From Escherichia coli (GTDB lineage: Bacteria; Pseudomonadota; Gammaproteobacteria; Enterobacterales; Enterobacteriaceae), in the NCBI RefSeq assembly GCF_044324875.1, contig NZ_CP172185.1: DNA of 64,000 nt; one strand, 5' to 3'. Position 1 is the stretch's first letter. Every line of letters starts with the position of its first letter. Of the stretch, positions 15,876 through 16,030 are shown in pieces. The notes under the pieces were generated by a model. The model was not told the DNA's origin. It saw only the letters and a list, made by a program, of their open reading frames with translations, and searched no databases. Made by a program: the position numbers and the translations under genes.

Positions 15876-16030
15876 ATATGTCCGGTTTGTTTGTACATTT
15901 TTTGCACATGTCCGGTTCGCAGAAAGCATGTTTTTATATTTTTCATATAGTTAACTTGCAGAGAAACCGGACATGGATCCCGGAAAATTTTCATAAATAG
16001 CGAAAACGCGCGAGGTCGACGCCCCGTAAC
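15876..16030 (-). other. cos site: cosN (12-nt cohesive end GGGCGTCGACCT on the phage strand, plus-strand 16013..16024) and cosB with three ATGTCCGGTT-type repeats (15876..15890, 15906..15920, inverted copy 15964..15976)
   Basis: Minus-strand GGGGCGTCGACCTCGCGCGTTTTCGCTATTTATGAAAATTTTCCGG is near-identical to the lambda left end as I recall it; about 213 bp upstream of the Nu1-like start. Confidence 0.7.

What the first reader, a model, noticed from the sequence alone, without database searches (positions are those of the whole stretch)
15876..16030. cos site: lambda-type cosN combined with a distinct cosB repeat set
The 12-nt cohesive-end sequence and adjacent about 35 bp are near-identical to the lambda left end as I recall it, but the presumed small-terminase binding elements are three copies of ATGTCCGGTT, two direct near the Nu1-like gene and one inverted near cosN, separated by an AT-rich putative IHF site. 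The Nu1-like protein and the terminase N-terminus diverge from lambda accordingly, suggesting a packaging specificity different from lambda with lambda-compatible cohesive ends.
Basis: partly seen in the sequence, partly recalled or inferred. Interest (0 to 1): 0.45.

Follow-up and report, generated by a model that had tools for sequence, protein, structure and literature searches.

The report
Lambda-type cos with new terminase-binding boxes
This is the DNA-packaging start site (cos) of a lambda-like E. coli prophage: the cutting site is almost identical to lambda's, but the three short boxes that the small terminase subunit is expected to recognise, and the protein's DNA-binding end, belong to a common, apparently uncharacterised type.

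Summary
Reading the minus strand, window 16054-15800 holds a lambda-type cos. It runs cosQ GGGTCCT, a 12-nt cosN GGGCGTCGACCT (11/12 to lambda, G6T), then 38 bp almost identical to lambda. Next come three exact ATGTCCGGTT boxes: R3 at chromosome bp 51-60, and R2 and R1 inverted relative to R3. An AT-rich IHF-like site lies between R3 and R2, followed by the TerS and TerL genes.

The boxes are not chance: 3 exact copies against 0.15 expected. They are near-invariant in 45 distinct related cos sequences whose spacers vary. R3 and R2 also hold their positions in a Leclercia prophage whose TerS is 61% identical.

The R3-IHF-R2 geometry (57 bp) equals that of lambda and phage 21. R1 is a direct copy of R2 30 bp away, not an inverted one 43-44 bp away.

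TerS matches Pfam Nu1 only over aa 49-150. Its N-terminal predicted winged-helix domain belongs to a separate subfamily. In Pseudomonas, Aeromonas and other phages that subfamily always sits beside tandem TCCGGT repeats at the R3 position.

This cosB type occurs in 22% of complete E. coli genomes and in the isolated PhiR12 phages. A satellite-like island also carries it. The most likely reading is a packaging specificity distinct from lambda, 21 and N15. Binding and virion ends are inferred, not shown.

The parts
16048..16054 (-). cosQ heptamer GGGTCCT (packaging-termination element in lambda)
   Evidence: It is identical to lambda and 21 and sits 30 bp upstream of cosN. It is present in 43 of 45 related cos sequences as aligned. 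The other 2 are shifted by a 1-bp indel.
16013..16024 (-). cosN: predicted 12-nt 5' cohesive-end sequence GGGCGTCGACCT, with nicks expected at its two borders
   Evidence: It matches lambda GGGCGGCGACCT at 11/12 and is flanked by the conserved ACG and CGC. The same G6T allele occurs in E. coli Ch1, in AR_0085 and in an IMG/VR contig. The actual ends were not determined.
15983..15995 (-). I2-like element TATGAAAATTTTC (annotated as IHF site I2 in the phage 21 record)
   Evidence: It lies at chromosome bp 30-42 and is identical in lambda and near-identical in 21. The 21 annotation is.
15965..15974 (-). R3 box ATGTCCGGTT (chromosome bp 51-60), the cosN-proximal predicted TerS site
   Evidence: Exact copy. 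It is invariant in 45 of 45 distinct related cos sequences. It holds the same position in Leclercia. It occupies the place of lambda and 21 R3.
15941..15953 (-). I1-like IHF site core within the AT-rich R3-R2 spacer (15918-15964)
   Evidence: It matches WATCAANNNNTTR at 7/9 at bp 72-84, the position of I1 in lambda and 21. Relatives score 8/9 at the same position: RM8082, the O121 island and Leclercia. The spacer is 80-90% A+T.
15908..15917 (+). R2 box (AACCGGACAT on the phage strand, bp 108-117), inverted relative to R3
   Evidence: Exact copy. It forms an 11-nt perfect inverted repeat with R3. It is exact in 40 of 44 relatives. It is identical in sequence and position in Leclercia.
15878..15887 (+). 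R1 box (AACCGGACAT on the phage strand, bp 138-147), a direct repeat of R2 30 bp away
   Evidence: Exact copy. It is exact in 35 of 45 relatives, and 10 have AGCCGGACAT. It is degenerate in Leclercia. It is removed by a 30-bp deletion in L021.
15291..15800 (-). Small terminase subunit (TerS, 169 aa, GTG start): N-terminal predicted winged helix-turn-helix (aa 1-54) plus a Nu1-like C-terminal part
   Evidence: Pfam Phage_Nu1 matches aa 49-150 only. PHROG 57 matches full length. It is 100% identical in alignment to PhiR12_1 TerS. AlphaFold gives strand, H4-10, H15-22, wing, H38-54.
13391..15319 (-). Large terminase subunit (TerL, 642 aa, gpA family)
   Evidence: Pfam GpA_ATPase and GpA_nuclease both match. 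The first 208 aa are 80% identical to phage 21 gp2. The first 78 aa are 63% identical to lambda gpA.

Best explanation
This is the cos site of a lambda-like E. coli prophage.

Proposed mechanism, by analogy with lambda and 21. A TerS dimer places its two N-terminal winged helix-turn-helix motifs on the inverted boxes R3 and R2. IHF bending at the AT-rich I1 site brings those boxes together. R1 adds a third, accessory site. TerS bound at R3 (bp 51-60) anchors TerL so that its endonuclease makes nicks 12 nt apart at cosN. This gives 5' cohesive ends GGGCGTCGACCT. Packaging proceeds rightwards into the TerS/TerL genes and ends at the next cosQ-cosN.

Specificity. The recognition boxes (core TCCGGTT) and the TerS DNA-binding domain are of a type different from lambda, 21 and N15. 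The phage should therefore package its own DNA and not theirs. Its nicking site and termination signal remain lambda-like.

What is shown: the sequence anatomy, its conservation, and the co-occurrence of the domain family with the box core.

What is inferred: TerS binding, IHF binding, the position of the nicks, and the specificity.
For: 1. Anatomy. cosQ, cosN, I2, R3, I1, R2, R1, TerS and TerL follow the lambda/21 order. R3 is at bp 51-60. The R3-R2 centre distance is 57 bp, the same as I measure in lambda and 21.

2. Not chance. There are 3 exact 10-mers within 97 bp against 0.15 expected in 64 kb.

3. Footprint. In 45 distinct cos sequences next to this TerS, the R3 core has 0/10 variable columns, R2 2/10 and R1 1/10. 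The spacers have 51-60% variable columns. cosN itself has four alleles.

4. A distant relative. In Leclercia sp. 29361, TerS is 61% identical with an identical recognition helix. R3 and R2 are identical in sequence and position, although the spacers have diverged. The IHF match rises to 8/9.

5. Domain and motif travel together. There are 25 variants of this N-terminal domain, from Pseudomonas phages LPPA33 and Y8, Aeromonas phiARM81ld, E. coli 705R4 and metagenomic contigs. The variants outside the three-box E. coli type carry 2-4 tandem copies of the shared hexamer in the cosB position; L121 carries related TTTCCG/CCGGAAAA repeats instead. Where a cosQ is found, the first TCCGGT starts 78-86 bp after it, against 83 bp for R3 here. 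This holds whatever the distance to the TerS start codon.

6. A different module. Pfam Nu1 covers only aa 49-150. The two recognition-helix positions that discriminate lambda (Q20/E24) from 21 (E20/S24) (PMC4669245) are R19/K23 here.

7. Predicted fold. The domain is modelled as a winged HTH with pLDDT 74-86.

8. Viable phages. The identical TerS and the same three boxes occur in the isolated phages PhiR12_1, _2, _4 and _5.

9. Piracy. An island at tRNA-Pro in E. coli O121 carries integrase, ash, icd, primase, SSB, capsid and decoration genes. It also carries exactly cosQ through the first 24 TerS codons, with all three boxes intact. That is what a satellite needing only the cis packaging signal would keep.
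Against: - No experiment supports it. TerS and IHF binding, the nick positions and cross-packaging are untested.
- The G6T change lies in the left half of cosN. The literature describes that half as under selection (PMC4669245). This particular copy could therefore be cut less well.
- The box resembles phage 21's (ATGTC-GG against ATGTCCGG), so some cross-recognition is possible.
- R1 is oriented and spaced differently from lambda and 21, so the lambda model may not transfer to it.
- Homology of the N-terminal domain to the Nu1 wHTH is weak at sequence level: hhalign E=0.005, probability 7%. The fold searches gave only weak or uninformative hits.
- The IHF match is only 7/9 here.
Confidence: 0.85

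Rival explanations
1. The site has the same packaging specificity as phage 21. The boxes would be a tolerated variant of the 21 R boxes, and TerS of this phage and of 21 would cross-recognise each other's cosB.
For: The core of the 21 R boxes is (A/G)TGTCGG, against ATGTCCGG here. TerL is 80% identical to 21 gp2 over the first 208 aa. The cosQ-cosN region is closest to 21 in BLAST, at 89.7%.
Against: TerS is only 32% identical to 21 gp1. Its DNA-binding domain is not matched by the Pfam Nu1 profile, which covers 21 gp1 from residue 1. The discriminating residues are R19/K23 against E20/S24. The extra base shifts the half of the box distal to it by one bp. The nearest full-length relatives of this TerS are not 21-like; they are Pseudomonas and Aeromonas phage proteins that sit beside TCCGGT repeats.
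Confidence: 0.07
2. The cos in this window is a crippled relic. The G6T change in cosN, or decay of the prophage, prevents cutting, so the site no longer works even though the family's design is functional.
For: Natural cosN variation is reported to be confined to bp 7-12, with the left half under selection (PMC4669245). 38 of 45 related cos sequences have the lambda cosN.
Against: The G6T allele recurs in the window, E. coli Ch1, AR_0085 and an IMG/VR contig. At least two different sequences lie to the left of cosQ in these copies. About 8 complete E. coli genomes match at >=96%. The CG dinucleotides flanking the nick sites are intact. TerS, TerL, portal and the other head ORFs are full length.
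Confidence: 0.1
3. The three boxes are operators for some other DNA-binding protein, such as a regulator of terminase expression, or are part of a transcript structure. They would not be TerS sites.
For: R3 overlaps a weak terminator-like stem, CCGGGATCCATGTCCGG followed by T-rich sequence. In the simple relatives the TCCGGT repeats lie 20-36 bp before the TerS start codon.
Against: Terminator-like hits are no more frequent than in shuffles, and there is no promoter on the phage strand. There is no Rfam match. The constant feature across relatives is the distance from cosQ/cosN, not the distance from the start codon; in L116 the boxes lie 59-71 bp upstream. The motif tracks the TerS N-terminal domain family across genera. 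A satellite-like island retains the boxes without an intact TerS gene to regulate.
Confidence: 0.04

Closest known systems
Bacteriophage lambda cos (cosQ-cosN-cosB with R3-I1-R2-R1; TerS gpNu1, TerL gpA)
   Same: cosQ is identical. cosN is 11/12 identical and bp 13-45 are 32/33 identical. R3 occupies the same place. An IHF-like site lies between R3 and R2. R3 and R2 are inverted, 57 bp centre to centre. The gene order is the same. TerL is gpA family, and the TerS C-terminal part is Nu1 family.
   Different: The boxes are ATGTCCGGTT rather than CGTTTCC(T/G)TTCT. R1 is a direct copy of R2 at 30 bp, not inverted at 44 bp. The TerS N-terminal domain lies outside the Pfam Nu1 profile and has a wing about 11 residues shorter. 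R19/K23 replace Q20/E24. cosN carries G6T.
Phage 21 cos (GenBank M81255: R4, I2, R3, I1, R2, R1, I0; gp1/gp2)
   Same: It has the same tripartite layout and the same 57-bp R3-R2 distance. The box core is similar (ATGTCGG against ATGTCCGG). TerL is 80% identical over 208 aa. The cosQ-cosN flank is 89.7% identical.
   Different: The box core has one extra base. The orientation and spacing of R1 differ. TerS is 32% identical, with a different DNA-binding-domain subfamily.
N15 / Monarch cos (simple cosB with R3 only plus remote rR2; the Monarch group is tripartite)
   Same: One recognition type exists in both a simple and a tripartite architecture (PMC4669245). Here the simple form is tandem TCCGGT in Pseudomonas, Aeromonas and 705R4-type phages. 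The tripartite form is the E. coli and Leclercia type. The 30-bp R2/R1 deletion variant L021 resembles the unequal-crossover route proposed for N15.
   Different: The R sequence and the recognition helix differ. N15 gp1 aligns with this TerS only over aa 59-164.
cos sites of Gram-negative PICIs used with Rpp-TerS (Fillol-Salom 2019; Murialdo and Feiss 2022, PMC9026076)
   Same: They have lambda-like cosQ and cosN with a cosB of different sequence at the R3 position. RppC (6hn7, and 6hlk) appears among the weak structural matches of the TerS models.
   Different: PICI cosB is simple and is read by an island-encoded Rpp. Here the site lies in a phage beside its own TerS. The satellite-like island seen in E. 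coli O121 copies the phage's full three-box cosB rather than using a different one.

Membership tests
[quoted passage not shown] | A 12-nt cohesive-end sequence similar to lambda GGGCGGCGACCT, flanked by conserved CG dinucleotides | tested here: met
   GGGCGTCGACCT is 11/12 identical, in the context ACG|...|CGC. Whether it really forms the virion ends is not testable with these tools.
lambda-like cos phages | A conserved 7-bp cosQ upstream of cosN | tested here: met
   GGGTCCT lies at 16048-16054, 30 bp before cosN, as in lambda and 21.
complex (tripartite) cosB of lambda, 21 and Monarch | Three R sequences between cosN and the TerS gene, with R3 at about bp 48-65 | tested here: met
   There are three exact 10-mers, and R3 is at bp 51-60.
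complex (tripartite) cosB of lambda, 21 and Monarch | R2 oriented opposite to both R3 and R1 | tested here: not met
   R2 is opposite to R3. R1 has the orientation of R2, not of R3, and lies 30 bp from it rather than 43-44 bp.
complex (tripartite) cosB of lambda, 21 and Monarch | An IHF binding site (I1) between R3 and R2 | tested here: inconclusive
   A 7/9 consensus match lies at the homologous position within an AT-rich tract, and relatives score 8/9. Binding was not tested.
lambda packaging specificity (cosB-lambda / gpNu1) | R boxes CGTTTCC(T/G)TTCT and the Nu1 recognition helix with Q20/E24 | tested here: not met
   The boxes are ATGTCCGGTT. TerS is 34% identical and has R19/K23 at the aligned positions.
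phage 21 packaging specificity (cosB-21 / gp1) | R boxes with core (A/G)TGTCGG and the gp1 recognition helix with E20/S24 | tested here: not met
   The core is ATGTCCGG, with one extra base. TerS is 32% identical and has R19/K23.
Pfam PF07471 Phage_Nu1 (small terminase of lambda type) | A match to the full 164-position profile, including the N-terminal DNA-binding domain | tested here: not met
   The score of 67.9 bits is above the cut-off of 30, but only aa 49-150 align, to profile positions 62-163. Lambda and 21 align from residue 1. PHROG 57 covers the full length in all three.
gpA-type large terminase | GpA_ATPase plus GpA_nuclease domains, encoded directly downstream of and overlapping TerS | tested here: met
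   E-values are 1.4e-53 and 2.8e-70. The gene starts at 15319 and overlaps the TerS end at 15291.
functional cosB (any specificity) | Sequence-specific binding of the cognate TerS to the R boxes, and dependence of packaging on them | not testable with these tools
   Only comparative support is available: box conservation, co-occurrence of domain and motif, and the copy in the satellite-like island.

The most novel reading that the evidence does not exclude
This is a fourth natural packaging specificity among lambda-like cos phages, after lambda, 21 and N15. It is defined by ATGTCCGGTT boxes and by a TerS DNA-binding domain of a separate subfamily that reads a TCCGGT core. It is orthogonal to the three known types. 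It is carried by about one in five E. coli genomes, including O157:H7. Satellites that copy the whole cosB pirate it. Its R1 has been re-oriented, so the accessory site works in a geometry different from lambda's.
Probability: 0.6. Interest if true: 0.5.

Novelty: new variant of a known kind. Interest (0 to 1): 0.4.

Why it matters
The open-access review of the field that I read states that only three packaging specificities (lambda, 21, N15) have been documented among lambda-like phages, and that diversity looks modest because few examples were studied.

- **A ready-made fourth case.** It is defined at base-pair level and lies in a very common group of E. coli prophages, including those of O157:H7 strains.
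- **Who can package whom.** It bears on which co-resident prophages and satellites can package each other's DNA. That in turn affects the spread of virulence genes.
- **A natural test of recognition.** The same wHTH scaffold reads related but shifted boxes: lambda TTTCC-GTT, this type TGTCCGGTT, 21 TGTC-GGTA. This allows a direct test of how TerS-DNA recognition evolves.
- **A possible tool.** It could supply a cos/terminase pair orthogonal to lambda's for in vitro packaging or cosmid systems.

It does not change the known mechanism.

Tried and rejected
- **Chance repeats: rejected.** There are 3 exact copies against 0.15 expected. The 1-mismatch count (4 against 4.05) and the 7-mer count (12 against 7.0) do not discriminate and were not used.
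- **PDB sequence searches.** Searches with the protein and with the domain profile found no terminase or Nu1 entry. Only chance-level hits such as eS10 and BUD31 appeared.
By my mistake this was the Aeromonas homologue, because it was the first row of alignment A3. It gave only weak hits (E >= 0.2) to MerR-family, excisionase, BldC, RacA and Rpp structures.
- **hhalign of the domain family against Nu1 N-termini.** The alignment is collinear but weak: E 0.005, probability 7%.
- **Literature.** Searches for the box strings found only unrelated primer and construct sequences. No paper describing the PhiR12 phages was found. The library is open-access only, so an earlier description in a subscription journal cannot be excluded.
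- **Species-representative genomes.** A strict pattern found nothing. A looser R3...R2 pattern gave 8 hits. Seven are in unrelated taxa and look like chance. One, in Leclercia, is a real relative.
- **RNA element or promoter.** There is no Rfam hit and no promoter on the phage strand.

Full report
**What is in the sequence**

The phage genes run on the minus strand. Read in that direction from 16060 to 15790, the segment contains the following, with chromosome bp counted from the first base of cosN:

- cosQ GGGTCCT, window 16048-16054.
- A 23-bp spacer.
- GTTACG|GGGCGTCGACCT|CGCG, with cosN at window 16013-16024.
- A block almost identical to lambda through bp 45.
- ATGTCCGGTT at bp 51-60, window 15965-15974. 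I call this R3.
- A 47-bp spacer that reaches 80-90% A+T.
- AACCGGACAT at bp 108-117, window 15908-15917. I call this R2.
- A 20-bp spacer containing an A6 run.
- AACCGGACAT at bp 138-147, window 15878-15887. I call this R1.
- 77 bp further on, a GAGGTG Shine-Dalgarno sequence and the GTG start of a 169-aa ORF at 15800.
- A 642-aa ORF that overlaps the end of the 169-aa ORF, starting at 15319.

The 10-mer occurs exactly three times in the window and nowhere else. Shuffles give 0.15 on average, and none of 100 reaches three. R3 and R2 form an 11-nt perfect inverted repeat. It only omits cosQ, which lies just outside its coordinates.

**Comparison with lambda and phage 21**

I used the lambda cos from the DE3 prophage record, where the cos site is annotated. 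I used GenBank M81255 for phage 21, whose record annotates R4, I2, R3, I1, R2, R1 and I0.

All three share cosQ, the spacing to cosN, the flanks of cosN and the I2 block. The shared sequence ends at about bp 45.

- **cosN.** It differs from lambda and 21 at one base, G6 to T.
- **R3-R2 distance.** The distance between the centres of R3 and R2 is 57 bp in all three phages. This is my count.
- **IHF site.** The best IHF-consensus match in the spacer lies at bp 72-84 here (7/9). In lambda it lies at bp 74-86 (7/9) and in 21 at bp 74-86 (8/9).
- **R1.** Here R1 differs. In lambda and 21 it is inverted relative to R2 and lies 44 and 43 bp away. Here it is a direct copy of R2, 30 bp away.
- **Box sequences.** With one gap the boxes can be written in register: lambda CGTTTCC-GTTCTTC, this site CATGTCCGGTTTCTC, 21 CGTGTC-GGTACTTC. 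The new box therefore looks like a relative of both, not an unrelated sequence. This is my inference from the sequences.

**The proteins**

The 642-aa protein is a gpA-type large terminase. Its first 208 aa are 80% identical to 21 gp2. Its first 78 aa are 63% identical to lambda gpA, with most differences in the first ~26 residues.

The 169-aa protein is 34% identical to lambda Nu1 and 32% identical to 21 gp1. Pfam Phage_Nu1 matches it above threshold, but only over aa 49-150. The same profile covers lambda Nu1 and 21 gp1 from residue 1. The broader PHROG 57 covers all three proteins over their full length. The N-terminal 48-55 residues match no Pfam family.

AlphaFold models were made of this protein and of an Aeromonas homologue. 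Both give a short strand, helix 4-10, helix 15-22, a hairpin region and helix 38-54, at pLDDT 74-86. This is the order of elements in a winged helix-turn-helix. Fold searches gave only weak support. A profile-profile alignment to Nu1 N-termini is collinear but weak.

Genetics reviewed in PMC4669245 identify two recognition-helix positions that discriminate lambda (Q20, E24) from 21 (E20, S24). At the aligned positions this protein has R19 and K23.

**Evidence that the boxes are the TerS sites**

*Conservation among close relatives.* A scan of IMG/VR with the protein returned 241 relatives, of which 80 loci were kept. Together with the E. coli loci they give 45 distinct cos sequences.

| Segment | Variable columns |
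|---|---|
| R3 core | 0 of 10 |
| R2 core | 2 of 10 |
| R1 core | 1 of 10 |
| R3-R2 spacer | 51% |
| R2-R1 spacer | 60% |
| cosQ-cosN spacer | 74% |

cosN itself has four alleles in this set.

*A distant tripartite relative.* A prophage in Leclercia sp. 29361 has a TerS 61% identical overall, with an identical RQLRRLQKLPGAP helix. It keeps R3 and R2 identical in sequence and position. Its IHF match is 8/9. Its spacers have diverged and its R1 is degenerate.

*Co-occurrence across genera.* The full-length relatives of this TerS in the phage database are not lambda, 21, N15 or phi80, which align only from about residue 59. They are Pseudomonas phages LPPA33 and Y8, Aeromonas phage phiARM81ld and E. 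coli phage 705R4. A second IMG/VR scan with an alignment of these proteins gave 25 distinct N-terminal domain variants.

- The variants outside the three-box E. coli type carry two to four tandem copies of the hexamer (for example TTTCCGGTTCCGGTT). L121 carries related TTTCCG/CCGGAAAA repeats instead.
- Where a cosQ is found, the first TCCGGT starts 78-86 bp after it. R3 here starts 83 bp after cosQ.
- This distance holds whether the TerS start codon is 20 or 71 bp further on.
- In phiARM81ld, whose record begins with GGGCGTTAGACC, the repeats lie at bp 56-68.

The TCCGGT(T) core thus travels with this domain family across genera and always occupies the R3 position. The E. coli and Leclercia clade has the same core in a lambda-style three-box layout.

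*An independent element keeps the module.* In E. coli O121 strain 201805972 an island lies next to tRNA-Pro. It carries a disrupted integrase, ash, icd-like, primase, SSB, major capsid and decoration genes. It ends with cosQ, a cosN allele (GGGCGGGAGCGG), all three boxes at the standard spacing and only the first 24 codons of TerS. An element that depends on a helper's terminase would retain exactly this cis-acting piece.

**How common it is**

- A 129-bp query limited to bp 35-163 matches 1184 of 5426 complete E. coli genomes, including O157:H7 strains. There are often two copies per genome.
- The exact allele of this window, with G6T, is rare: about 8 genomes at 96% identity or more.
- In the phage database the TerS is found only in the PhiR12 series. 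These records list laboratory E. coli strains as host, which suggests plaque-forming phages. Their records do not annotate cos.
- The host of the window is E. coli: its mfd-ycfT region is 98.8% identical to E. coli genomes.

**Mechanism**

The most likely mechanism is that of lambda and 21, as described in PMC4669245. Dimeric TerS docks its two wHTH motifs on R3 and R2, which the IHF bend at I1 juxtaposes. This anchors TerL for nicking at cosN. cosQ serves termination.

The sequence anatomy, the conservation and the pairing of domain with motif are shown here. Binding, bending, the nick positions and the specificity are inferred.

A specificity distinct from lambda is very likely. Distinctness from 21 is likely but less certain, because the box cores differ by only one inserted base. 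R1's direct orientation at 30 bp, about three helical turns, implies a different use of the third site. I cannot resolve that here.

**Known or new**

The open-access literature I could search describes three documented specificities: lambda (shared by 434 and phi80), 21 and N15. It also describes PICI cos sites read by Rpp-TerS. I found no description of this box or of this TerS subfamily. The library lacks most subscription journals, so this is not proof of absence.

I class the site as a new variant of a known kind. The machinery and logic are lambda's. The recognition module, and the geometry of one box, differ.

**Caveats**

- The G6T change lies in the half of cosN that the literature regards as constrained, so this copy may be cut less efficiently. 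It does recur in several contexts.
- The 45 cos sequences are mostly close relatives. The footprint therefore rests chiefly on the contrast between boxes and spacers, and on the Leclercia and cross-genus comparisons.
- My first structure job modelled the Aeromonas homologue rather than the window's protein. The second job modelled the window's protein.

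Noticed in passing
L175 (NZ_CP119441.1 3111409-3125453); cos at L005 1209-1535: An island of about 14 kb lies next to tRNA-Pro (yejM side) in E. coli O121. It carries an IS-disrupted integrase and ash, icd-like, primase, SSB, major capsid and head-decoration genes. No terminase or portal is annotated. It ends in a full copy of this cosQ-cosN-cosB plus 24 codons of TerS. It looks like a phage satellite that uses the helper's own cosB rather than a different one.
   Followed up: partly
window 16013-16024; relatives L002, L005, L006, L007: Cos sites with the same three boxes carry four different cosN alleles: GGGCGGCGACCT, GGGCGTCGACCT, GGGCGGGAGCGG and GGGCGGCAGCGG. 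The window's G6T lies in the left half, which the literature describes as conserved. It also creates a SalI site (GTCGAC).
   Followed up: partly
L021 (IMGVR_UViG_2675903621_000013), upstream of TerS: This is a natural two-box variant. Exactly 30 bp between R2 and R1 are missing, as expected from unequal crossing-over between the two direct repeats. It parallels the route proposed in the literature for simplification of cosB in N15. L056 is also shorter, by 17 bp.
   Followed up: partly
L121 (IMGVR_UViG_3300039456_000011), 60 bp upstream of TerS: A divergent member of the same TerS domain family has a different repeat layout: CGTTTCCGTTTCCGTTTT followed by ACGGAAAACCGGAAAACCGGAA. These are tandem repeats in inverted blocks. 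Its cosQ-like sequence is AGGTTCT rather than GGGTCCT.
   Followed up: no
L004 998-1004 (lambda chromosome bp 41-47): Lambda's own cos contains the heptamer TCCGGTT between I2 and R3, about 13 bp nearer cosN than R3 of the new type. Whether this allows any asymmetric cross-recognition, as N15 terminase has for lambda DNA, is unknown.
   Followed up: no
window 16100-18200: Between the lysis genes and cos lies a cargo region not found in lambda. One ORF (16791-17171, minus strand) is annotated as a TonB family protein in the near-identical E. coli Ch1 prophage. A 105-aa ORF (16109-16426, plus strand) contains a hydrophobic signal-like stretch. There is also a 209-aa ORF (17549-18178, minus strand).
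   Followed up: no
window 20978-21131: Two phage-borne tRNA genes, tRNA-Arg(TCT) and tRNA-Met(CAT), lie on the phage strand in the late-gene region upstream of the lysis genes. Many lambdoid E. coli prophages have tRNA genes in this position.
   Followed up: no
L176-L182 (genome-contig hits): The pattern ATGTCCGGTT, 42-52 nt, AACCGGACAT also occurs once each in seven unrelated genomes, including Bacteroidia, Clostridiales, Mesorhizobium and Cyclobacterium. The number is about what chance predicts for 298 Gb. I did not inspect them.
   Followed up: no
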